Assembly: GCF_963921235.1 (NCBI RefSeq)
Contig: NC_086097.1
Coordinates: forward strand, 28,522,001 to 28,586,000
Reading direction: 5' to 3'
DNA from: Mobula hypostoma
Lineage: Eukaryota
Length of the DNA stretch: 64,000 bases
The position numbers and the translations under genes are program-made. Below the pieces are notes generated by a model. The model worked only from the letters and a program-made list of their open reading frames with translations. It did no database searches and was not told the origin of the DNA. Shown one piece after another: positions 2,936-53,462 of this stretch (position 1 is the first letter of the stretch; every line of letters starts with the position of its first letter).

Positions 2936-2953
2936 GCTACAGAAGATAAGCAA

Positions 2954-3078
2954 ACAACAGGAATTCTGCAGATGCTGGAAATTCAAGCAACACACATCAA
3001 AGTTGCTGGTGAACACAGCAGACCAGGCAGCATCTCTAGGAAGAGGTACAGTCGACGTTTCAGGCCGAGACCCTTCGT
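2954..3078 (-). mobile_element. Short PLE terminal-repeat insertion with hammerhead core
   Basis: TSD cagaagataagcaa at 2940-2953 and 3079-3092. Near-identical to 25369-25470 and 63777-63881. Confidence 0.8.
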
Positions 3079-3460
3079 CAGAAGATAAGCAACCTGGTTA
3101 GCGGATACTGAGTCACACTACAGCTTTGCAGACGAAGGAACCCAAGGGCAAGGCACTGGGTATGGTTAAAGCAGAGTTTGACAAGTTTATGATTATTAAG
3201 GGTGTCAAAGGTTGTGGGAGAAGGTGGGAGAATGGAGTTGAGGGGGAAAATAATCAGCCATGATGGAATGGCAGAACAGACTCGATGGGCCGAAAAGCCT
3301 AAACCTGCTCCTACGTCTTATGGTCTAAGTTACGAAAAGTTTACAAACAGGTGATTTTACAAACTATAAGGAAGCATAAAGCAAGCTAAGATCACCAGGA
3401 AAAACACAATAAAAATAACAACCTGGGCCCTAATCCAACAGGAGAGATCTTCCTCCTTAC

Positions 3461-3984: not shown

Positions 3985-4066
3985 ATTGCGATGGCTGAGT
4001 GGTTAAAGTGTTGGACTTGAAATCCAATGAGGATATCCCACACAGGTTCAAAGCTTGCTCACAAAA
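3985..4066 (+). pseudogene. tRNA-Ser(TGA) pseudogene
   Basis: gcgatggctgagtggttaaagtgttggacTTGAAAtccaat...caggttcaaagcttgctc is colinear with vertebrate tRNA-Ser(UGA). Acceptor stem is broken and TTCGA has become TTCAA. Confidence 0.85.
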
Positions 4067-22085: not shown

Positions 22086-24012
22086 CTGACGGCAAGGCAG
22101 AGAATACAAGTCAACTTGGTCCCTCTGGAAGGATGAAGCCAACATCTTTAGTGCCTTTCGCCTAACATCCTGAAGTATCTTAGAACTCTTGTTAGGCACA
22201 TGGCAGATAGCAAAAAGGAGGGCTATGTCGGAGGAAAGGGTTAGACAAATCACCTGGGTTAGAGAAGTCACATAAAGGCAAAAATGTAATGCTGAAGCTT
22301 TATAAGGCATTGATCAGACTGCACTTGGGAGTATTGTAAACAGTTTTGGGCCTTTTATCTGAGGTAGAATCCGCTAACAATGGAGAGGGTCCAGAGGAGG
22401 TTCACAAGAATTATCCTGGGAATGAAAAGGTTACATATGAAGAGTGTTTGATGGCTCTGGGACTGTACTCACTGGAGTTTAGAACAATGAGGGGGGATCT
22501 CGTTGAAATTGGAGGGGAGAGATTTAAATCAGAGGCAGTTTCTTCATTCAAAGGGTTGTGTGCATTTGGAAGAAGCTGCCAGAAATAGTATTGTGGTAGG
22601 AAGATGAGCAACATTCAAAACCTATCTAGATAGGTACATGGACAGGAATGGTTTGGAGAGCTATGGACCAAATGTAAGCAGATGTGACTAGCTTGTGGGA
22701 AGACATGAGCTGGGCCAAATGGCCTGTTTCATGCTAAATAACTGTATGACTATGGACTAAGCACACAAGAGTAGCAGATAATATTGAAGACTACTGGAAT
22801 ATTGACCCTTATTACAAGAAAGCTGGTGTATAAACATTGTTAACAGAGACAGATTTATATAGCATGGAGGCAGGCCTTTCAGCCGAACTTATGCGTGATT
22901 CATCTGTAGATTTAATCCTTACTTTCATTGTGTGTTATGTTTATTATGGGTACTTCTGTACTTTACACCCTGGTTCTGAGAAACGTTGTCTCGTTTGACG
23001 GTATACATGTATATAGTTAAATGACAATAAACTTAACTTGAATTGATTTCGCAAGCCTAGGAAAAAAATTCACCTTGTCTATAGTCCTCATGATTTTATA
23101 CACTTCAATAAAATAACTTCTCAGTCTCCAATGAATAAAAGGCCCGCCTGCTCGACCTCTCTCTATCACTCAATCCCTCGAGTCGCAGCAACGTCCCAGT
23201 ATAGATCTGCTGCATTCTTTTCAGCTTAATGGTATCTGAAGCATGAGGAAGAGTAATTTTCTAGTTGGTTTGAGGGCCTTTGTAACTCCTAGTCTCTGAG
23301 TTCTATGGTGACAGAATCTATGTGTGTATTTAAAGCTGACATCGACAGATTCCTGAGCTTAGAGAATCATGTGGCATGGGAAAAAGGCAGGACAGTGGAC
23401 CTGTGGAATAAACACAAGATGCTGGAGGAACTCAGCAAGTCAGGCAGCATCAATGGAGGGGAATCAACAGTTGATGTTTCGGGCTGTGACCCTTCATCAG
23501 GACTCTGAAGAATGTTGGATCAGCCACCATCCCACTGATTGGTGGGACAGACTCAAAGGGTCAAATGGCCTACTCCTGCCCCAACTTCTTAACGTCTTAA
23601 ATGGGGATATAGTCATTTCTTGCTGGAAAGGTTTGAGCAGGTTTGGAATTATCACCAAAGACTCTAACAAATTTTCTACAGACGTACCATGAAGAGCATT
23701 CTAATTGGCCGCATTACCAGCTTGTATGGAGGGGCCACTGTGCAGAATGGGAAAAATCTGCTGAAGGTTGCAAATTCAGCCAGCGCCGTCATGGGCATCA
23801 GCCTCCCCAGGATCAATGATTATCTTCTAAAAGTCACACACACACACACACATGATCTACCCGTCTATCTATTGCAATATACTGTTGCCACGACCAAAGC
23901 CAGTGACATTAAAATTGATTTTGATAATGATTCCTCCCCTCCTGTGAGGGACAATGACATTAGGAACTTGGTAGACTGCTGGAAGCCAGAAGGTTCAGAT
24001 GCCAGTTCAGAC

Positions 24013-24197
24013 CTTGTTGCTGAGGAGCTTGTTCTCCGCCTCCAGCTCCGCAGCTCTGGCCTTGCTCTCCTCCGCCGATAGCAAGGCTTGCCGGAGTTCC
24101 TCAACCCCATTTTGCAGGCTCTGGTTTTCCTTCTCCAGTTTCAGGATCCGGCTCGACGCCGACTCGTTCATCTCAAGGACAAACGACTTGCGGCCAG
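24013..24197 (-). CDS. CCDC88C: CCDC88-family exon 5 of 10 (185 nt)
   Basis: ttgcag| and |gtctga. (A)[28 protein letters not shown]...LLSNK; entry phase matches the previous exon. Confidence 0.92.
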
Positions 24198-25432
24198 CTG
24201 CAAAGGAGATCAAAGCAAAGCCACACTTAGATTACTGTGCTCGGTTCTTGTCGACTCGTCATAGGAAGGATCTGGAATCTTAGTAGAGAGGAGATTTACC
24301 AGGATGCTGCCTGGACTGGAGAGCAAACTGTAAACTCAAGAGATTCTGCAGATGCTGGAAATCCAGAGGAACGCACACAAAATGCTGGAGGAACCCAGCA
24401 GGTCAGGCAGCATCGATGAAGTCTTGATGAAGGGTTTCAGCCCAAAAGTTCGACTGTATTCCCCTCCACAGATGCTGCTCACTTGCTGAGTCCCTCCAGC
24501 ATGTTGTGTGGCTTTAGAGAAAATGTCTTATGAGGATAGGCTGAACAATCTAGGGCTTTAATCACTGGAGTGAAGGAGGTAGGAGGTTGACGAGTGACTT
24601 GATAGAGGTGTATAAAATGATAAGAGGCACTGATAGATTGGACAGCCAGAGACTTTTTCCCGGGATGGCAGTGTTTATACAAGAGGACATAATTTTAAAG
24701 CAATTGGAGCAAAGTATAGAGGGACAGTCGGAGGTAGTTTTATTACACACAGAGTGGTGAGAACATGGAATGTCCTGCTGGGGGTGGTGACAGAAGCAGA
24801 TACATTAGGGACACTTAAGAGACTCTTAGATAGGCACTTGGATGATAGAAAATGGAGGGCTATATAGGAGGGAAGGGTTAAGATTAACCTTAGAGTAGAT
24901 TAAAGAGTCAGCACAACATCATGGGCTATGAACTAAACTTGTAAGTGGAGGCTTAGTGGAGGAACTCATGGAATGAGTGAGAGGAAGGAACTGGGAGTTA
25001 AGGGCTTGGAGAGGCAGTTCACTCACAGATGGAAGGCACAGCAATTGGCAAAAGATCCGAGCGGAAGTGAGAAGAATCTGATTTTACAAAGCTGGAGGTA
25101 CGGTAAAGGTTAAGCCAGAGATCTCGGCCCATGAACCAGAACAGAGCTGCGACAGACCACTGATGTTGACTGACCTTTTATCCTACCCCAAGGTCAATCT
25201 AACCCTTCCCTCCCACATAGCCCTCCATTTCTCTTTCATCCATGTGCCCATCTTAGAGTCTCTTAAATGTCCCTAATGTATCTGGCTTGACCACCGTCAC
25301 AGCTGCTGGAGACATTTGATGTTGACGTTGTGTTGACCTGGTTCAAGAGAACAACACTATTTTTGCTCAGCAACACACGTCAAAGTTGCTGGTGAAAGCA
25401 GCAGGCCAGGCAGCATCTCTAGGAAGAGGTAC

Positions 25433-25468
25433 AGTCGACGTTTCGGGCCAAGACCCTTCGTCAGGACT
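25433..25468 (-). ncRNA. Minimal type-I hammerhead ribozyme motif (PLE-associated), intact core
   Basis: AGUC-CUGACGA-A-GGG-ucuugg-CCC-GAAAC-GUC^GACU. Stem I AGUC/GACU, stem II GGG/CCC, palindromic ACGU stem III. Confidence 0.75.
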
Positions 25469-28400
25469 AACTGAAAGAAGATAGTAAGAGATTTGAAAGT
25501 GGGAGGGGGAGGGGGAGATCCGAAAAGATAGGAGAAGACAGGAGGGAGAGGGATGGAGCCAAGAGCTGGACAGGTGAATGGCAAAGGGGATATGAGAGGA
25601 TCATGGGACAGGAGGCCTAGGGAGAGTGTGAGTATTTTTGCTCTTTTTTTTTGCACTACTTATCTATGTATCTAGAGTGGATATATATATTATATGACAT
25701 TTCTTACTGTACTTTATAGTATTTTATGTGTTGCACTGCACTGCTGCCGTAAAACAACAAATTTCATGACATGTCAGTGATAATGAACCTGTTTCTGAAT
25801 CACTGTTCTCTAATTAATAACCCACAACATGAATCATGTAACCATTTTCTGACGTGACATTGTAAACATTAGATGGAAACTTCTAAACTAAACACAGCAC
25901 AGGAGGGAGAATTTGGCCCATCATTGCTATCCTGGTTCTGTATGTGGGTAATTCAGCTGGTCCCATCTCCCCCACTCTTTCCCGGATCCCGTGCGTAAAC
26001 TATTTGCTTTCAAGATCTTAACCATGCTCTCTACAGAACATGGTAATTGCACCTGCCACCACAAAGCCTTCAGACAATGCATTCCAGATCCTTATCACTC
26101 TCCACATAAAAATGCTCTTCCTTGAGTTACTCTGACATTCTAAGCATGACTGAATGTTCTAACTGGTTGCATCACCATCTGGTATGGAAGCTTCAACGTG
26201 CAGGATTGCAAAAGGTGACACAAAGTTGTCGACTCAGCCAGCTCAATCAGGGGCACAACCATCCCGGCCATCGAGGACGTCTTCAAGAGGTGGCGTCTCG
26301 TGAAGGCGGTATCTGTTGCTATGGACCCTCACCACCTAGGACATGCTCTTTTCTCATTCTTACTATCAGAGAGGAGGTTCAGGAGTCTGTAGTCACATAC
26401 TCAACATTTTAGGAACAGTTTTTTTCCTCTCTGCCATCATATTTCTGAATTGTTCATGATCACTACTGCGTTTCTCCTATTTACGTTTGTAACTTAGCCC
26501 CTAAGACCATAAATATGGGAGCAGAATTAGGCCACTTGGCTCATCAAGTCTGCTCCACCGTTTCATCAAGACTGATCCATTTCCCTCTCAGCCTCGATCA
26601 ATTTATAGTGATTTCATGTCTTTGTACTGTACTGCTGCTGCAAAACAACAAATTTTACATCACATACAGTAAGTCATTGACAATACATCTGATTCTGGCT
26701 CTTTTTTTGCTAATTACTTTCATTGACTCCTCTGGTTTCTGACCCTGTTGTCAAACAACTGAACTCTGTATTTCTTCACAGTTCTAAATATTGATATCAG
26801 AGTCCCACTCAATCTTCTCCACTACAAGAGAACTACAGCTTCGCCAGTGCACCACAAACTAAGGTCCTTCGTTCTTGAAGTTATCCTTCCAACTAGGTTC
26901 TGCCTTCAATCATTACTGAGGCACGTGCCCAGAACTGAACGCCGGCTGTGGTCAAGTCTCTGTTTTGTAAAGGTTCATAAGACCACAAGACATCGGAGCA
27001 GATTCAGGCTAGATGATTGATTGATGTACAAGTTGGTCATCTAACCTGGTATAGAGGCAAAAGAGAGAATTGAACCATCTAGTAGTTAAGTTTCCCGTAG
27101 GATAGCTGGCACTAGATCTGCACGCAGTTTTATCTGGGCGAACCCTTTCTAAAGCAGAGGTTGATTAGTAACAGCATCATAGGTTACAGGGAGAAGGCAG
27201 GGATAGTAAATCAGTCATAATCAAATGGTGGAACAAACTTAATGGGCTGAATAGCCTAATTCTGCTTCTACAGTACATCTTATGGTCTTATTACCATTGC
27301 TTCTTCACTCTACTCTCCCAGCACTCATCAAACAATCTGTTACTCCTGAAGCTTATACAAAAGCACATTCTCCACCACATCCTTGCTTCATAAGACGCAG
27401 GAGCAGAATTAGGCCATTTGGCCCATCGATTCTTCTCCACCATTCCATCCCGTTGATTTATCTCCCCTCAGAACCCCAGACTTCCCACTGGCAACAAAAG
27501 CAACGACACCACTCTTTCCTTTGTAACCTATATACGTGAAGTACACATAAATATGGCCTATAATAAATAAACACATCACAATGTACCAAAGTACCAAAAA
27601 GAAATACTCCAAGTGTGATCTAACTAGAGGGTTACAGAGCTACAACATTATCTTGCGGCTCTTGAACTCAGTCCCATGACTAATGAAAGGCAACACACCA
27701 TTCGACTTCTTAACAACCCTATCAATTTGCGCAGAAACTTTGAGGGGTTGATGGATGTGGACCCTCTGCACCCTCTTTTCTTTCCATTGCCAAAAATCCT
27801 GCTGATAACCCTGTATTCTGCCTTCAAATTCGACTTTCCAAAATCAATCACTTCACATTTTCCCAGGATGAATGGGGTTGAGAGGGATAATAAATATATA
27901 ATGTCAGAGCAGACTCAATGGGCCAAATGGTCCAATTCTGCTCCCATGTCTTATGGTCTAACATTAATAATGAATGAGTATTATCAATTGCAAAAAGCAG
28001 AAGGTTGCAGATGTTGAGTAAATGCATCTCTAATCGGGAACTTTTTTTTACAATGGTCAGAAATGGACAGGAAAGATGTCAATAAGTTTGAAAGAGTGGA
28101 GAGAGAATTTACAAGGATGCTGCTGGGACTTGAGGATCTGAATTATTGGGAAAGATTTGCCCTGGGACTTAGGAGAATGAGGGGAGATTTGATAGAGGTA
28201 TACAAAATTATAGATTGGGTAAGTGCAAGCAAGTTGGGTGAGACTAGAACTGGAAATCATGGGTATGGGGTTGAAGCTGAAATATTTAAGGGGAACCTGA
28301 GGGGAAGCTTTCTGTGCAAGGAGTGGCACCTCACGCAGCCTTCTGATCTGCGCCTTGTAAGGCAAGAAAATGCCCGACGCAGGCTTCTCATGGTCTGAGT

Positions 28401-29299
28401 CGACATTCCCTCCCCGAGGGGAAGCTTCTTCACTCAGAGGGTGGTGAGAGTGTGGAACGAGCTGCCAGCTGAAGTGGTGGATGTGGGTTTGATTTCAAAA
28501 CTTAAGAGATACTTGGATACGTACATAGATGGGAGGGATATGGAGGGCTATGGTCTGGGTGCAGGTTGATGGGATTAGGCAGAAAGATAGTTCAGGACAG
28601 ACTAGATGGGCCAAAGGGCCTGTTTCTATGCTGTAGTGTTCTATGACCCTAAGTAAACAGCATTTCCACAGCTATCAATGTGAGCAAGGAAAGGTTTATC
28701 CACTTGACAGAGCTTGGCTTACTTTGTATGAGATTTCCTATTAAATAAACCAATGGTACCTTCAGGATTAAAACCCACTAAAGGCTTGAGAAGTCAGGTC
28801 ACAAATTCATCACCTGATGAAAATTCGGTACATTCGACCCCAAGGCAGGGGACAATCAAAATCAAACACTGAGCCTACTTTGAAACGAATTTTGAAGGAA
28901 ACCAGATTGCAGCTTTTTGAGGAGCTTTTTGTTGTGGAAGTGAAGAGTTCAGCCACTCTCAGATCTGCAACAAAATACTCTCTCCTGAGAAGTTAAGTCC
29001 TTCTCTAGAACTCATTAATGGGGACTGCTAAAGGGAAAGATTGGTCAGCACTCAATCCATTCTTTCTAAAAGCTCCTGGAATAAAAGGTTTTTGTGCATC
29101 ACAGAGTTTTGTTGATTGCTAAGCTCATGAGGCAATAACTTTTAATGAATTCTCCCGAGTCACGAAACACCAATTCAGACCAGCACTATCCAAATGCTGA
29201 ATAATGTGGCTCGTCCAAAAATATATTCTTTGGTCTGCTTTCTGCTGGTTGTTTTTTTTTGAAGAAATTTGTGGCTTGTTGGCTATCACTTAAGGTCTA

Positions 29300-30372
29300 C
29301 AACAGACAATAGGTGCAGGAGTGGGCCATTCAGCCCTTCGAGCCAGCACCGCCATTCACTGTGATCATGGCTGATCATCCACAATCAGGACCCCGTTCCT
29401 GCCTTCTCCCCATATCCCTTGACTCCACTATCTTTAAGAGCTCTATCTAACTCTTTCTTGAAAGCATCCAGAGAATTGGCCTCCAGGGCCTTCTGAGGCA
29501 GAGCATTCCACAGATCCACAACTCTCTGGGTGAAGAAGTTTTTCCTCAACTCCGTTCTAAGTGGCCTACCCCTTATTCTTAAACTGTGGCTTCTGGTTCT
29601 GGACTCACCCAACATCGGGAACATGTTTCCTGCCTCTAGCATGTCCAATCCCTCAATCCCCTCTCATCCTTCTAAATTCCAGTGTATACATGTCCAGTCA
29701 CTCCAATCTTTCAACATATGACAGTCCCACCATCCCGGGAATTAACCTCGTGAACCTATGCTGTGCTACCTCAATAGCAATAATTTCCTTCCTCAAATTT
29801 GGAGACCAAAACTGCACACAGTACTCCAGGTATGGTCTCACCTGGGCCCTGTACAACTGCAGAAGGACCTCTTTGCTCCTATACTTAACTCCCCTTGTTA
29901 TGAAGGCCAACATGCCATTAGCTTTCTTCACTGCCTGCTGTACCTGCATGCTTACTTTCAGTAACTGATATACAAGAACACCTAGATCTCATTGTACTTC
30001 CCCTTTTCCTAACTTGACACCATTCAGATAGTAATCTGCCTTTCTGTTCTTGCCACCAAGATGGATAACCTCATATTTATCCACATTAAACTGCATCTGC
30101 CATGCATCTGCCCACTCACCCAGCCTGTCCAAGTCACCCTGCATTCTCATAACATCCTCCTCACATTTCACACTGCCACCCAGCTTTGTGTCACCTGCAA
30201 ATTTGCTAATGTTACTTTTAATCCCTTCATCTGAATCATTAATGTATATTGTAAATAGCTGCGGTCCCAGCACTGAGCCTTGCAGTAGCCCACTGGTCAC
30301 TGCCAGCCATTCTGAAAGGGACCCGTTAATACCTACTCTTTGTTTCCTGTCTGCCACCAATTTTCTATCCAT
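29300..30372 (-). mobile_element. 5'-truncated CR1 LINE
   Basis: VTSGLLQGSVLGP, SKFAGDTKLGG, VRPYLEYCVQFWSP, FFTQRVVDLWNALP. Confidence 0.9.
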
Positions 30373-31250
30373 AACAGAGTGGAACCAAATCACATATTGG
30401 ACAGGCTGGGGTGTGCGATGGGCATCTTTTATAATACATCGCCACATCAAACTTCATCTCTGGGGGTTTGAGGAATTCAGTGCGGAGAGAGCAATGCACT
30501 ATTGAAGGTGCTGGCTTCCAGCTGAAGCACTGGACCACAACCTCTGCTGCCCTGACAATGCTTTACAACACCAGCAACCCAGGATCAATTCTGCCATTGT
30601 CTGTGAGGGATTTGTATGTGGCACAGCACAGAAACTTGCCCTTTGGTCCACCTAGGCCACGCTGAGTCGGTGGAGCATGGGCAGAATAAAATAAGATTGG
30701 CCTGGGAGCAATTGGGTACAATGACTGGCACAGACTCGGTGGGCAGAATGGCCTGTTTCTGGCTCTATGTCTCCGTGAGATCTTAATGTAAAAGGCAGGC
30801 ACAAAGGAGGCAAATGGAGTTTAATGAAGAGAAGTGTGTTGGGAAGAAATTGTTGAGGTAAAGAGGGAGATTTAAGGTTATGACCAAAGTGCACAGAGGG
30901 CAGCAAGGCAGGTGGATAAAGAATAAATTTTATGGTAATTGGAGGACATTGATGGGCTATTGGAGGGAAGGGCTAAATTAATCTGAGAGTAGGCTAAAGT
31001 GTTGGCACAACATGGTGAGTCAAAGAGCCTGTACTGTTATATTGTTCCATGTTCCATAACGTTCTATGATGCAGTGACAAATATGTACTTTGATAATAAA
31101 TTTACTTTGAATGTTGAAGTGCATTCTACTTTTTTCTACCCAATTCCAGCCAACTCAATGCAACAATTTCGAGATGATGATTTACTTCTCTCTGACACTC
31201 AGCCGGTCACTGACCGCCTGAACCAAGCAACAGTTTTGGAGGAAACTTAC

Positions 31251-43855: not shown

Positions 43856-45369
43856 TAACTACTAATTAACCATCAGGTTTTATGACTTATTCTTGACTTC
43901 CAAAGAACCTCTGGATCAATATCACCAGATTCAATACACATTCAGTGACCCCCTTGTTAGGAACACCTTGTAAATGCAAATATCTGATCAGCCAATCATG
44001 TGGCAGCTACTCAATACAGAAACGCATGCAGACTTGGTCAAGAGGTTCATTTGTTGTACAGAACAAACACCAAAAATGTGATCTAAGTGACTTCAACTAT
44101 CGAATGATTGTTGGTGCTTGATGGGTTGATTTGAGTATCTCAGAAACTGTTGATCTCCTGGCATTTTCACACACAATAGTCTCCAGAGTTTACAGGAAAA
44201 TGAAAAGGTATCGAGTAAGTGGACATTCTATGAGTGAAAATACCCTGGTCAGAGGAGAATGCCCAGACAGTTTCAAGTTGATAGGAAGCTGAGAGTAACT
44301 CAAATAACCATGCTTTACAAGAGTGATGTGCAGAAGAGCATCTCTGAATGTATAATATGTTGAACCTTGAAGTGAGTGGGCTACATCAGCAGAAGACCAC
44401 ACTGGGTTCCACTCCTGTATCCAATAATGCAGCTACCGAGTGTATCCAGACTTAGAAATATATTTCCATTCAGCCCATCTTGTCTGAGGACTCTCAGAGC
44501 AATCTCTTCAAACTCATTTCCCACTTGTGTCTGAAATCTATTTCTCCCTCTCATACCCACACACAGATTCTTGCCCATTGACACCCCAGTGAATCTTCTA
44601 CCACCCACTGACATGACGGACAATTAACCCATCAACATGGGAAGAAACTGGGCAGCACTTGGGTGAAACACACAATGTGGCAGAGTAGACAGACAACTCT
44701 ACATCATCAGCACCAGAGACCAGCGTTCAGTCCAAGTCACTGGAGCTGGGCCACTGTGTTCCCTTCCGGTTATTGATCTATTAAATACTAGACTCTACAA
44801 CAGTTACTTCCCCCCAGGCTGATCAACACCTCCACACATTAACCCTCCCCAAGAGTCCCCACCATCAGCCACATCCACATCAGCCACTCGTCTCCATGGC
44901 CCCTCAGCATCCACTGCCACTTTTACACTTCTAGTCCACACCTCATACCTACACTGACACACACCTACTCACAAACAAGAGAAAATCTGCAGATGCTGGA
45001 AATCCGAGCAACACACACAAAATACTGGAGGAACTCAGCAGGCCAGGCAGCACCTCTGGAAAAGAGTGCAGTGGACGTTTTGGGCTGAGACCCTTCGGCA
45101 GGACTGGAGGAGGGTCTCCGCCCGAAATGTTGACTGTACTCTTCCATCCCAACCTACTCTACTGCCTTACTGTGTTTTCATCTGCCCTGCTGCTACCTAG
45201 AGGAGTTCCTCTTGCCAAGAGTCACTTAGTGACTTTATCATTTCCTGTCTGTCACCTGATGTTCAGATACTTCTGCATCTCATGTCACTTTACGTACATA
45301 CAATCAGTCTATACAAGCTAACCCTATGTATGTACAGCCACACTCAAACAATCACTTCTCAACGTGTGG

Positions 45370-46760
45370 GGCTGAAGTAAGAAGCTGGAAAAGAAGGAAT
45401 CTGATAGGAGATTGGACCATGGGCAAAAGGGAAAGACAGGCAACAGGGTGAGGTGATTGACAGGTGAAGAAGAAGAGGTAAGGCGGGGGGGAGAGTGAGA
45501 ATAGGGAATAGAAAAGGGAAGGGGGAGCTGGAAAATCACCAAGAGTTGGAGAAATCAATGTTCCTGCCCTCAGATCAAGGGCTAGCCAGACAGAATATGA
45601 AGTGTTGCTCTTCCAACCTGAGACAAGCCTCACTGCGGTAGTACAGGATGCCATAGACCAACATGTCAGAATGGGAATGGCGATTGGCCACCAGTAATCC
45701 TGCATTTTATGGATGGATCGAAAGTGCTTGACAACGTTGTCCCTCAACCTACATCAGGTCTTACCATTGTAGCGATTGCATCAGCACCAATGGATACAAT
45801 AGACTGCCCAAAACGATTCACATCAGTGTTGCCTCACATGGAAGGACTTTTAAGGCCCTGAATGGGGTGGAAGGAGGTGAATAGCCAGATGTAGAACTTC
45901 TTTCAATTGTAGGGTTAAGTGTCAGGAAGGAGATTATTGGGAAGGGTCAAGTGGACAAGGGAATCACGGAGGGAACAATCCCTTGGGAAAGTGGAGAGTG
46001 GAGTTGAGGTAAAGGTGTGTTTGGTGGGAGGATCCCATTGAAGATGTGGAATCTGCGGAGAATTGTGTGCTGAATGTGGAGGCTGATGGGTTGATAGGTG
46101 AGGACAAGAGGAACTCCATCTTTGTTAAGGGATGAGGGTGGATGTCTGGGAAATGGAGATGATGCCGATGAGGGCAGCATTAGTGGTGGGAAGGTGGTGT
46201 CCTGACGAGGAAAGCCTCATCCTGGAAATAGATGTGGTGGAGACAAAGGACTGAAAAAAAGGAGACAGGTTGGGAAGAGGTAATGGTCAAGATAGCTGTG
46301 TGAGTCAGTCCAGTTATAAAAGATATTCGTAGACAGCTTGTCTCCAGAGGTAGAGACAGTGAGATCAAGAAAAAGCAGAGGGGTGTCAAAAATGGACCAA
46401 GTGAATTTAAGGTCAGGGTGCAAGTTGGAGGCAGAGTTAATGAAAGTGATGAGCTCAGCATAATGAAAGACATGGAGCAGCACCAATCTAGTCATCACAG
46501 TAGCGCAGAAAGAGTTAGGGAGCTTGGGGAAGGCTTGGAACATGGACTGTTCCACATAGCCAACACAAAGGCACGCATAGCTGGGGCTACGTGGATACCC
46601 TCGGCTAGACTGAGCTTGGAGAAAGTGCGAGGAGCTGAAAGAGAAATTGTTCAGTGTGAGGATCAGTTTTGCCGGATGGAGGTGGGTGGTGTTGTTGGGG
46701 AACTGCTGTTGAGAAAGGAGCGAGGAACTTTACAGTTTTCTTAATGGGGGATAGAATTGT
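45370..46760 (-). mobile_element. Degenerate PLE ORF (RT C-terminal half plus GIY-YIG)
   Basis: LHPDLKFT...FLDLTV...TDSHSYLD; PLVLTYQP; VYCIH; NIDFSN. Confidence 0.8.
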
Positions 46761-52312: not shown

Positions 52313-53462
52313 ATAACCTCACTATTTAACAACCAGAGGTCCCATAGTCACATTGCTTAATCACTAGAGAGCACACAATCCCACTGTTTGATCACCAGAG
52401 ACCCCATAAACTCATGGATTACTCACCGGATAACCTACAGTATCACTGTTTAACCATTAGCAACCCCATAACCACCAGACACCCCACATTACCATTATTT
52501 AATAACCAGAGCCCATGCAATCGTCCATCTCATTGCTGAAAATTCCACAATCACAACCACACTCAAAGTGCTGGATGAACTCAGCACATCAGGCATGGAG
52601 AGGAATAAAGAGTCAAAGGTTCATTTATTATCAAAGTATACAACTCTGAAATTCTTCTCTGATGTTTCGGGCCAAGACCCTTCATCAGGCCCGAAACAGT
52701 GACTGTTTATTTCCCTCCATAGATGCTGCCCGACTTGCTGAGTTCCTCCTGCAATTTGTGTGTGTTCTTCAAGATGCATCTGCGGAATCTCGTGTTTGTG
52801 CCCACAACCTCACTGCGTTGACTGTGCACCCACACTGCCAACACAGTGCCCCAGGGTTGGACACCTTGTCCTCACTGATCTAAGTTGGCAAGGTCACTGA
52901 ACATCATGTCATCAAACTAATGCCATGCGCTGTGCCATCCTCACATTCCAGTCTGTTGATCTCTTTTGGGGACTTCTATTTTCACATTTTAGCTCTCGGT
53001 TCCCTCAAATTAAATATAATTTTAATTTACCTCCAAAAGGTCCTAATTTACCCCCTTGTTTGACACAGTGCTCGTGTGGGTGTCTGTGTCTCTCTGTGTC
53101 CGAGTATCCTCTTCCTATTATGGTTTGCATTCTAACAAAGCCTATAAATCAGAACATTTTATTTCTGTATGTATTATTAAGGATTCAGTTCCCTTTCCAT
53201 GGAAAAAGCTGATACACGTATATGGGAAGATGCTGTCCAGATATACAACAGTGAATGCACAAAGTACAAACAGGATACAAAGGTCCTGGTAAATCAGTTA
53301 ATAAGGTCCCGCCCACAAATTTATCAACATAACTGTGTATATTTTGGCAGGAGTAAGGGGAGGTTTTATTGAACATTAACTGCAGGATACTGGTCCTAAA
53401 ACACAATCCACTGTGCATGCATATAATCTAACCCACTGTTCACACACATAATCTAACACGCA

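What the first reader, a model, noticed from the sequence alone, without database searches (positions are those of the whole stretch)
25433..25468. Intact minimal hammerhead ribozyme motif in the sense strand of the pre-mRNA intron
Seen: the minus strand reads AGUC CUGACGA A GGG ucuugg CCC GAAAC GUC^GACU. It has all core nucleotides (C3-A9, G12-A15.1, GUC triplet), a 4-bp stem I, a 3-bp stem II with one extra A before it, and a loopless palindromic ACGU stem III. Known: Penelope-like elements carry minimal type-I hammerheads thought to cleave as dimers through a palindromic stem III. Inference: it is co-oriented with the host gene, so it is transcribed in the intron about 1.2 kb before exon 24197 and could cut the nascent RNA.
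Basis: partly seen in the sequence, partly recalled or inferred. Interest (0 to 1): 0.8.

Follow-up and report, generated by a model that had tools for sequence, protein, structure and literature searches.

The report
Retroelement relic carrying minimal hammerhead motif
The hammerhead-like motif is real, but it is one of tens of thousands of copies left by a Penelope-like jumping gene in a ray-like genome, a known kind of sequence that most likely does nothing to the host gene's RNA when it stands alone.

Summary
It is not a chance match and not a host invention. It lies inside a 264-nt, 5'-truncated insertion (25632..25369) flanked by an 11-bp target-site duplication. That insertion is the 3' end of a Penelope-like element (PLE). 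Longer copies carry a reverse transcriptase plus GIY-YIG endonuclease frame that stops about 300 nt upstream of the motif. The genome holds 66,146 matches to the motif pattern. Other motif families in the same genome keep the core while helices I and II covary, which supports a true hammerhead fold. This is the dimer-type "min-HHR" published for PLEs in 2014. The copy is sense-oriented in a 7-kb intron of Daple (CCDC88C), 1,239 nt upstream of a confirmed exon. Cutting of the nascent RNA is not supported. Published single motifs are inactive, and nearest-neighbour folding favours a closed hairpin that buries the core. Rfam hammerhead models do not match. The RNA data available here could not show RNA ends. 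Verdict: a correct catch of a known kind, of low interest.

The parts
25432..25469 (-). Minimal type-I hammerhead motif (min-HHR). Helix I 5' strand 25469-25465, C3-A9 25464-25458, extra A 25457, helix II with CUUG loop 25456-25445, G12-A14 25444-25442, palindromic ACGU (15.1-16.1) 25441-25438, C17 25437, helix I 3' strand 25436-25432. The predicted cleavage site lies between 25437 and 25436.
   Evidence: Sequence read; pattern matches; pair-by-pair parse.
25369..25632 (-). 5'-truncated insertion of a Penelope-like element: the last ~264 nt of its 3' untranslated region, ending at the shorter of the two 3'-end classes (no optional ~34-nt tail).
   Evidence: blastn to a longer copy gives window 25615..25369 = element positions 974-1222 at 92.4% identity. 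Boundaries come from the flanking duplication.
25633..25643 (-). Target-site duplication, upstream copy (GAGCAAAAATA on the minus strand).
   Evidence: Read directly.
25358..25368 (-). Target-site duplication, downstream copy (GAGCAAAAATA on the minus strand).
   Evidence: Read directly.
24011..24198 (-). Exon of the host gene Daple (CCDC88C), with an AG acceptor and a GT donor. The intron upstream of it (24199..31248) holds the motif.
   Evidence: Splice sites. Contigs of 3,865 and 2,094 nt (runs X1, X2) match exactly 24011-24198 with 0 differences. The exon is 95% identical to a stingray Daple. Exon map.
3054..3081 (-). Second sense-strand copy of the motif. The core is intact, but the element starts at C3, so the helix I 5' strand is missing. 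The element spans 3081..2952 with the optional tail and a flanking direct repeat (ttgcttatctt).
23473..23500 (-). Third sense-strand copy, from a related, older-looking repeat family (CTGATGA...GAAACATC). It has A at 16.2 and A at 1.1 and lies 1.96 kb downstream of the finding, in the next intron.
52661..52688 (-). Fourth sense-strand copy. The core is kept, with T at N7 and A at 16.2. It has no helix I (0 of 5 pairs).

Best explanation
The motif is the dimer-type minimal hammerhead (min-HHR) of a Penelope-like retroelement. A 264-nt, 5'-truncated cDNA copy of the element's 3' end was inserted by target-primed reverse transcription into an intron of Daple, leaving an 11-bp target-site duplication. 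In the parent element, as inferred from the literature, the hammerhead lies in the terminal repeat region. It can become catalytic only when two copies pair through the palindromic ACGU and exchange helix I strands, probably helped by the element's own protein. The intronic copy is transcribed as part of the Daple pre-mRNA (inferred). As a lone monomer it cannot form helix III, and it is predicted to close into a hairpin in which G5-A6-C7-G8 pairs with C15.2-G16.2-U16.1-C17. It is therefore most likely a silent relic with no effect on Daple RNA. Shown here: the sequence, the insertion boundaries, the link to the RT/GIY-YIG frame, the copy numbers, the covariation between families, the host exon and the orientation. 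Inferred: transcription of the intronic copy, the dimer mechanism, and the lack of cleavage.
For: Retroelement context. (1) Longer copies share ~655 nt upstream of the motif, which translates to a GIY-YIG endonuclease C-terminus (Pfam PF01541, 24.9 bits against a cut-off of 22.6). (2) A 576-aa open frame adds a reverse-transcriptase match (RVT_1, E 1.9e-5). (3) Open frames reach 854 aa.

Fixed position of the motif. (4) In 30 loci picked by the protein alone, the motif lies 279-307 nt after the stop codon. It matches the relaxed pattern in 23 of 30, and the other 7 carry it with one or two point changes.

Insertion signatures typical of PLEs. (5) There is an 11-bp duplication around the window copy. 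(6) There are two 3'-end classes: 15 of 31 tail-anchored copies have an extra ~34 nt and 16 of 31 end at element positions 1211-1229. This matches the optional 30-40 bp PLE 'tail' of Frangieh et al. 2024. (7) Among the first 100 tail-anchor places, 13 head-to-head pairs occur.

Fit to published min-HHRs. (8) All four traits listed by Cervera and De la Pena are met: an extra nucleotide between 9 and 10.1, a G10.1-C11.1 pair, a palindromic 15.2-16.2, and a short helix I.

Covariation. (9) A descriptor that excludes the main family (CTGARGA N10-24 GAAACGTC) gives 3,530 genomic matches against 233 for the reversed control. (10) The families fetched keep the core and the extra nucleotide while the helices change. 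Pair 10.2-11.2 is G-C, U-A, A-U or C-G. Pair 10.3-11.3 is G-C, C-G or U-A. Helix I is UAGUC/GACUG, UGCA/UGCA or AGAA/UUCU.

Conservation between lineages. (11) Among 48 copies chosen without regard to the motif, none of the 10 positions that distinguish sub-lineages falls in the 38-nt motif; all 10 lie in the 135 flank positions.

Silence of this copy. (12) Published single motifs are inactive and dimers are weak. (13) The monomer minimum-free-energy fold is the closed hairpin at -14.1 kcal/mol. The double hammerhead scores -17.9, against -28.2 for two hairpins and -38.3 for the best duplex. (14) The exon downstream sits inside long, exactly matching, spliced-looking contigs.
Against: No Rfam hammerhead model matches, even at E up to 10. 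That is expected for a motif without a helix III hairpin and with an inserted base, but it means no curated model confirms membership. In the 576-aa frame, both Pfam matches (RVT_1 at 24.9 and GIY-YIG at 20.8 bits) fall below Pfam's curated cut-offs. Only the GIY-YIG match of L006 passes. The energy model ignores the tertiary contacts of the hammerhead core, so the folding argument is weak. RNA carrying this repeat family appears abundant in the contig sets laid, which are only guessed to be RNA. Three further sense copies lie in the same gene, so pairing in trans or in cis is not excluded. Families C and E show poor helix I pairing. Private mutation rates in the motif do not differ from those in the flanks once lineage-diagnostic sites are set aside, so the copies themselves show no constraint. 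No cleavage or RNA-end data could be obtained.
Confidence: 0.8

Rival explanations
1. The intronic copy is an active ribozyme that cuts the nascent Daple pre-mRNA. It would do so either by pairing with another sense copy in the same transcript (23473-23500 is 1.96 kb downstream, 3054-3081 is 22 kb downstream) or by pairing in trans with the many other transcripts that carry the repeat.
For: The core, helix I and helix II of this copy are intact. All 4 motif copies in the window are sense to Daple. Contig sets guessed to be RNA carry the repeat at very high summed depth. A homodimer could form 5 + 4 + 5 intermolecular pairs.
Against: Published single min-HHRs do not cleave, and dimers cleave poorly and mostly at non-physiological Mg2+. 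A reptile PLE hammerhead needed the element's protein, and no RNA-seq ends were seen at its site. The double hammerhead is about 10 kcal/mol worse than two closed hairpins in the energy model. The nearest partner (23473) has A at 16.2 and A at 1.1, which leaves a C.A mismatch in helix III and a mismatch in one helix I. The exon just downstream sits inside long, exactly matching contigs.
Confidence: 0.06
2. In this element family the conserved sequence serves mainly as a structured, non-catalytic signal. The closed hairpin could be bound by the RT/endonuclease or could act in reverse transcription and end formation. Under this view, the hammerhead core persists for that reason or by ancestry.
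For: The closed hairpin is the predicted fold for both the window copy and the majority form. In the reptile element, hammerhead catalytic mutants did not change insertion in vitro. The 5' ends of truncated copies and the axes of head-to-head pairs cluster in and just upstream of the motif: 14 of 31 at element positions 1097-1144, against 1 of 31 at 1145-1194.
Against: The alternative pairing needs N7 to match G16.2, yet N7 is A or G in the other families while 16.2 stays G. So the hairpin does not covary, whereas helices I and II do. Plant and fungal PLEs carry hammerheads that cleave well, and the reptile motif shows C3G/G8C rescue.
Confidence: 0.12
3. The motif is a chance resemblance to a hammerhead within a repeat.
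For: No Rfam hammerhead model matches. Relaxed minimal descriptors do produce background: 233 reversed-control matches.
Against: The motif holds a fixed position behind a PLE reading frame. All four independent min-HHR traits are met. Several families share the core while their helices covary. Matches outnumber the control 15-fold.
Confidence: 0.02

Closest known systems
Minimal hammerheads (min-HHR) in the terminal repeats of metazoan Penelope-like elements (Cervera and De la Pena 2014, PMC4209133; parts 1-2 of the whole text read)
   Same: It has the type-I layout and the full catalytic core, plus one unpaired nucleotide between A9 and G10.1 and a G10.1-C11.1 pair. It has a palindromic 15.2-16.2 with no loop and a 4-5 bp helix I. 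It lies in the non-coding end of an RT/GIY-YIG element. Most copies are scattered single motifs from truncated elements, and some form close opposite-strand pairs.
   Different: Helix II here is short (4 bp), whereas the Schistosoma families have 7-8 bp. Copy number is far higher: 66,146 pattern matches for one family, against about 4,000 and 9,000 motifs in the paper's 'remarkable' coelacanth and Xenopus genomes. The paper stresses extreme variability within a genome, whereas here one nearly uniform young family dominates. The three long copies examined (L039-L041) showed no upstream direct repeat carrying a second motif.
Poseidon element of Anolis carolinensis (PAc) and its hammerhead (Frangieh et al. 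2024, PMC11167929; passages read)
   Same: It is a vertebrate PLE with an RT plus GIY-YIG frame. It shows two 3'-end classes differing by a 30-40 bp 'tail', and it carries a hammerhead motif in the repeat region.
   Different: In PAc the reading frame starts inside the hammerhead. Here the motif lies about 300 nt after the stop codon, and no frame starting in it was seen. Protein-assisted cleavage was shown for PAc and was not tested here.
Conserved intronic hammerheads of amniotes (for example in RECK and CTCL introns; named in a figure legend of PMC6155905)
   Same: It is a hammerhead motif on the sense strand of an intron.
   Different: Those are described as single-copy, canonical motifs, which is partly recalled knowledge. 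This one is a loopless minimal motif in a recent repeat insertion with a target-site duplication, one of tens of thousands of copies. Nothing indicates host conservation.
Non-LTR retrozymes of animals (PMC7229834, search listing only; bioRxiv 10.64898/2026.07.22.740005, abstract and passages)
   Same: They carry type-I hammerheads related to PLE terminal repeats. They are present in one sampled chondrichthyan. They are reported to be depleted from introns in Xenopus.
   Different: Retrozymes are tandem, non-coding units that give circular RNAs. Here the copies are dispersed, 5'-truncated ends of a coding element.

Membership tests
Hammerhead ribozyme (type I, minimal / dimer type) | Catalytic core C3 U4 G5 A6 N7 G8 A9, G12 A13 A14, A15.1-U16.1, and H17 (not G) | tested here: met
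   All positions were read: CUGACGA, GAA, A...U, C17.
Hammerhead ribozyme (type I, minimal / dimer type) | Helices I and II flank the core and are supported by covariation | tested here: met
   The window copy has 5 of 5 helix I pairs and 4 of 4 outer helix II pairs. Across families, pair 10.2-11.2 takes four Watson-Crick types and helix I takes three different sequences. The sample is small (21 parsed motifs), and families C and E have a poor helix I.
Hammerhead ribozyme (type I, minimal / dimer type) | Helix III | tested here: inconclusive
   No intramolecular helix III is possible, because ACGU has no loop. The palindrome permits a 4-bp intermolecular helix, which is how the published min-HHR class is defined.
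Hammerhead ribozyme (type I, minimal / dimer type) | Match to a curated covariance model (Rfam hammerhead families) | tested here: not met
   No hammerhead hit at gathering score or at E up to 10. This is the expected outcome for a loopless helix III plus an inserted base.
Hammerhead ribozyme (type I, minimal / dimer type) | Site-specific self-cleavage after position 17 | not testable with these tools
   All runs found were kept as contigs, which cannot show RNA ends.
PLE min-HHR (Cervera and De la Pena 2014) | Unpaired nucleotide between A9 and G10.1 | tested here: met
   A at 25457. All 21 motifs parsed show one extra nucleotide (a, t or c) under that parse.
PLE min-HHR (Cervera and De la Pena 2014) | G10.1-C11.1 pair and palindromic 15.2-16.2 | tested here: met
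   The window copy has G-C and C/G. The majority genomic form has G.U at 10.1-11.1, since 11.1 is T in 44 of 48 copies.
PLE min-HHR (Cervera and De la Pena 2014) | Location in the non-coding terminal region of a Penelope-like element | tested here: met
   The motif lies 279-307 nt after the stop of the GIY-YIG frame in protein-selected loci. The window copy aligns to that region.
Penelope-like element | Single frame with reverse transcriptase followed by a C-terminal GIY-YIG endonuclease | tested here: met
   GIY-YIG passes Pfam's cut-off in L006. RVT_1 (E 1.9e-5) and GIY-YIG (E 4.9e-4) fall in one 576-aa frame, both below the curated cut-offs. Placement of the RT in the PLE/telomerase clade was not tested.
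Penelope-like element | Insertion signatures: target-site duplication, 5' truncation, optional 30-40 bp 3' tail, head-to-head partial copies | tested here: met
   duplication; truncation points; 15 of 31 copies with tail; 13 head-to-head pairs in the first 100 places; published tail signature.

The most novel reading that the evidence does not exclude
This genome carries at least 66,000 near-identical dimer-type hammerheads, and the repeat seems plentiful in RNA. Sense-oriented intact copies in introns, such as the four in Daple, might therefore pair with one another or with free element RNA, perhaps helped by the element's protein. They would then cut nascent host transcripts, producing a genome-wide, retroelement-driven layer of intronic RNA cleavage. 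A second, more modest reading concerns the hammerhead hairpin. It may be the place where reverse transcription of this element tends to stop and where head-to-head copies are joined.
Probability: 0.05. Interest if true: 0.6.

Novelty: new member of a known kind. Interest (0 to 1): 0.2.

Why it matters
As it stands, the finding matters little. It is a correct identification of a published class of motif in one of tens of thousands of dead retroelement ends. Two things give it some value. First, the scale is large. One young PLE family supplies 66,146 motif matches, 93,091 tail matches and 191,713 first-look protein candidates in a 3.5-Gb ray-like genome. That makes the genome a good natural data set for asking whether min-HHRs ever cut in vivo. 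Second, many copies sit sense-oriented in introns. A genome-wide comparison of intact and core-mutated sense copies could therefore test for selection against cleavage of host RNA without any bench work.

Tried and rejected
1. Rfam. No hammerhead family matched. I read this as a limit of the models for loopless motifs, not as evidence against the fold.

2. RNA evidence. No RNA holder was listed. All 13 runs found are Logan contigs, typed only as a guess. Laying 4 of the 13 (X1, X2, X5, X13) gave no table of molecule ends, and contigs cannot show ends. So nothing can be said on cleavage. Several unique intron bins beside the repeats had no cover, which proves nothing.

3. Covariance model. A model built from 16 main-family motifs was too sequence-specific. 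With default filters it missed family B entirely. With filters off, the other families scored among noise at E 0.02-9. I dropped it and parsed pairs by script instead.

4. Larger sample of copies. The 5'-end and conservation counts therefore rest on 31 and 48 copies only.

5. Upstream terminal repeat. I looked for a second motif upstream in three long copies and found none. Two of the three showed only an inverted partner.

6. 5' ends at the cleavage site. I asked whether 5' ends of copies pile up there (element position 1155), which would have been genomic evidence of cleavage. None of 31 starts there, and the nearest starts at 1160.

7. Literature. Lunse, Weinberg and Breaker on dimer cleavage is not held and is known here only through a review. 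Three searches found no paper describing these motifs in rays: hammerhead ribozyme + Penelope + shark, a six-term search (uninformative) and hammerhead ribozyme + Chondrichthyes. A 2026 preprint samples one chondrichthyan for retrozymes. Supplements of PMC4209133 were not opened, and bioRxiv supplements are closed. Either may list cartilaginous-fish motifs.

8. Pfam on the exon peptide gave only weak coiled-coil hits. The gene was named from the protein search instead.

Full report
**1. The observation**

Read on the minus strand, window 25468..25433 is AGTC CTGACGA A GGG TCTTGG CCC GAAAC GTC GACT. Every conserved hammerhead position is present: C3 to A9 at 25464-25458, G12 A13 A14 at 25444-25442, A15.1 at 25441, U16.1 at 25438 and C17 at 25437.

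- Helix I is AGUC/GACU plus a U.G pair (25469/25432).
- Helix II is GGG/CCC plus a U.G pair closing a CUUG loop.
- One A (25457) stands between A9 and G10.1.
- Positions 15.1-16.1 read ACGU with no loop.

The 28-mer with up to 3 mismatches occurs 3 times in the window against 0 in 100 shuffles. A relaxed pattern occurs 4 times, all on the minus strand, against 0 in 100 shuffles. Rfam does not recognise it. There is no hammerhead family at gathering score over the window and none at E up to 10 over 25200-25700.

**2. It is part of a repeat**

The window's genome (3,475,679,493 bases, 200 contigs) holds 32,957 + 33,189 = 66,146 matches to CTGAYGAAGGGTCTYGGCCYGAAACRTC. The reversed control gives none. 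A 17-base anchor 68 nt downstream of C3 occurs 46,614 + 46,477 = 93,091 times, again against none. The commonest form differs from the window copy at two positions: loop C instead of T, and 11.1 T instead of C.

**3. The repeat is the 3' end of a Penelope-like element**

- Three fetched copies share about 655 nt upstream of the motif and about 100-130 nt downstream.
- The upstream part translates to a GIY-YIG endonuclease C-terminus (PF01541, 24.9 bits against a cut-off of 22.6).
- With that 120-aa peptide as query, the genome gave 191,713 first-look candidates. The 150 that were scored are 97-100% identical, with open frames up to 854 aa.
- A 576-aa frame carries RVT_1 (E 1.9e-5) ahead of GIY-YIG (E 4.9e-4). 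Both fall below Pfam's curated cut-offs.

A reverse transcriptase followed by a C-terminal GIY-YIG domain is the architecture of Penelope-like elements (PLEs), as stated.

In the 30 loci chosen by the protein alone, the motif lies 279-307 nt after the stop codon. It matches the relaxed pattern in 23 of 30. The other 7 carry it with one or two point changes.

Copies end in two classes: 15 of 31 tail-anchored copies carry an extra stretch of about 34 nt, and 16 of 31 stop at element positions 1211-1229. This matches the optional 30-40 bp 'tail' that Frangieh et al. 2024 tie to two reverse-transcription start sites. Head-to-head pairs are common, with 13 pairs among the first 100 anchor places. 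Cervera and De la Pena noted the same arrangement.

**4. The window copy**

blastn against a longer copy aligns window 25615..25369 to element positions 974-1222 at 92.4% identity. Direct reading shows GAGCAAAAATA at 25643-25633 and again at 25368-25358. The insertion is therefore 25632..25369 (264 nt). It is 5'-truncated and lacks the optional tail.

**5. Is the family's motif a real hammerhead?**

It meets all four traits that Cervera and De la Pena give as independent of their search descriptor:

- families with covariation;
- a G10.1-C11.1 pair;
- a palindromic 15.2-16.2.

For covariation I searched with CTGARGA N10-24 GAAACGTC, which excludes the main family's C or T at N7. It gave 1,718 + 1,812 = 3,530 matches against 122 + 111 = 233 for the control. 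Many are mutated main-family copies, but several are distinct families.

I fetched 14 of the 100 listed matches, chosen by eye for inserts unlike the main family. I parsed them together with 3 main-family motifs from two loci and the 4 window copies.

- Family B (7 motifs including L067) reads CUGAGGA u GUCACC...GGUGAU GAAACGUC, with helix I UGCA/UGCA.
- Family C (4 motifs) has GAUGGC...GUCAUU.
- Family D (2 motifs) has GCCUCUC...GAGUGGC, with helix I AGAA/UUCU in one copy.
- Pair 10.2-11.2 thus appears as G-C, U-A, A-U and C-G. Pair 10.3-11.3 appears as G-C, C-G and U-A.
- One family-B relative (L067) has A-U where the others have G-C at 2.3-1.3.

Against this, families C and E pair poorly in helix I. 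The sample is small and hand-picked from the listing.

**6. Conservation among copies**

I took 48 distinct copies chosen without regard to the motif (protein-anchored and tail-anchored loci). Mismatches to the majority at non-CpG positions are:

| Region | Mismatches | Rate |
|---|---|---|
| 12-position core (10 non-CpG positions) | 9 of 480 | 1.9% |
| Rest of the 38-nt motif | 13 of 960 | 1.35% |
| Flanks | 211 of 6,376 | 3.3% |

Fisher tests against the flanks give p = 0.105 for the core and p = 0.0006 for the rest of the motif. By my own arithmetic from the printed counts, the flank excess comes almost entirely from 10 positions where a minority of 15% or more marks sub-lineages. All 10 lie in the 135 flank positions and none in the 38 motif positions.

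So inserted copies decay alike everywhere, as dead copies should. The lineages that kept amplifying did not change the motif. This is weak support for constraint in the active element.

**7. The host gene**

- The peptide of 24198..24013 is 95% identical to Daple of a stingray. It matches Daple/CCDC88C across vertebrates.
- tblastn of that protein maps exons on the minus strand from 59711 (residue 275) to 2314 (residue 1066).
- The exon 24198..24011 has AG and GT splice sites.
- Contigs of 3,865 and 2,094 nt from two runs match it exactly and stop at its ends.
- The motif lies in the intron 31248..24199, on the sense strand. Its predicted cleavage site is 1,239 nt upstream of the exon.
- Three more sense-strand motif copies lie in other introns of the same gene.

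**8. Would it cut?**

- Published data argue against it for a lone copy. A single Schistosoma min-HHR showed no detectable cleavage, and dimers and trimers cleaved only weakly.
- The Anolis element's motif cleaved only with the element's protein. Its catalytic mutants did not change insertion in vitro, and its authors found no RNA-seq reads beginning or ending at the site.
- For this copy, the minimum-free-energy fold of 38 to 61 nt, and also of the 247-nt fragment, extends helix I into a GACG/CGUC helix. That helix pairs G5-G8 with C15.2-C17.
- For a 45-nt piece the energies in kcal/mol are: monomer hairpin -14.1; helices I and II alone -9.5; double hammerhead -17.9; best dimer -38.3, an extended duplex.
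- The model ignores hammerhead tertiary contacts, so this is only an indication.
- The closed hairpin needs N7 = C or U. Other families have A or G at N7 with G16.2 unchanged, so it is not a conserved alternative.
- The nearest possible partner in the same pre-mRNA (23473-23500) would leave a C.A mismatch in helix III.
- No data on RNA ends could be had.
- From memory and not checked here: ribozymes placed in introns need not block splicing unless they cleave very fast.

**9. A test that could have shown cleavage in vivo**

If cleaved RNA were copied into DNA, 5' ends of copies should pile up at G1.1 (element position 1155). Among 31 tail-anchored copies none starts there, and the nearest starts at 1160. 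Instead, 14 of 31 start at positions 1097-1144, in or just upstream of the 5' half of the motif. Ten of those 14 are arms of head-to-head pairs.

**10. Comparison and verdict**

This is a member of the PLE min-HHR class published in 2014. It shows the insertion signatures described for PLEs in 2024. What differs is the scale and uniformity of the family, a short helix II, and the position well after the stop codon.

Earlier notes of this scan reported the same class in other genomes.

The finding is a correct catch of a known kind. The proposal that it cuts Daple pre-mRNA is unsupported and, for a lone monomer, unlikely.

Noticed in passing
G000 loci L069-L098; first 100 places: The 5' ends of truncated element copies cluster at element positions 1097-1144, in and just upstream of the 5' half of the hammerhead (14 of 31). 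Only 1 of 31 lies at 1145-1194 and 2 of 31 at 1000-1096. Thirteen head-to-head pairs among the first 100 anchor places have axes that, by my arithmetic from the spacings, fall between about 1098 and 1157. The motif's hairpin may be a stop or joining point for reverse transcription.
   Followed up: partly
L069, L071, L073, L079: In each of the 4 head-to-head pairs whose two arms were both aligned, one arm carries the optional ~34-nt tail (ending at 1255-1256). The other arm lacks it (ending at 1211-1222). This looks like two priming events from the two reverse-transcription start sites in one insertion. The sample is very small.
   Followed up: no
window 2952-63872: Of 12 blastn matches to this element family in the window, 10 are on the minus strand (sense to Daple) and 2 on the plus strand. 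Three of the minus-strand matches (44973-46114) look like one older element, giving about 8 against 2 insertions. The number is too small to call a bias.
   Followed up: no
window 24343-24500, minus strand: This is a related repeat in which an antisense copy of the hammerhead region is followed directly by a sense copy of the tail. It is a head-to-head pair whose sense arm starts downstream of the motif. It lies in the same intron, only about 150 nt upstream of the exon's acceptor site. Contig depth over it is very high in all four runs.
   Followed up: no
G000:C1, six of the 100 places listed (e.g. L045, L046): A 25-nt variant (CTGAAGA GTCTC... GAAACGTC) lacks the three bases that form the 5' strand of helix II. 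It looks like a deletion derivative that cannot fold as a hammerhead yet has several copies.
   Followed up: no
window 3985-4066, plus strand: Rfam tRNA match (38.6 bits, E 0.00014) inside a Daple intron. It may be a tRNA gene or a tRNA-derived repeat.
   Followed up: no
L006 967-1443 and 2133-2897, minus strand: One element copy is inserted in a LINE-type reverse-transcriptase sequence, with open frames of 158 and 254 aa on either side. This shows nested repeats.
   Followed up: no
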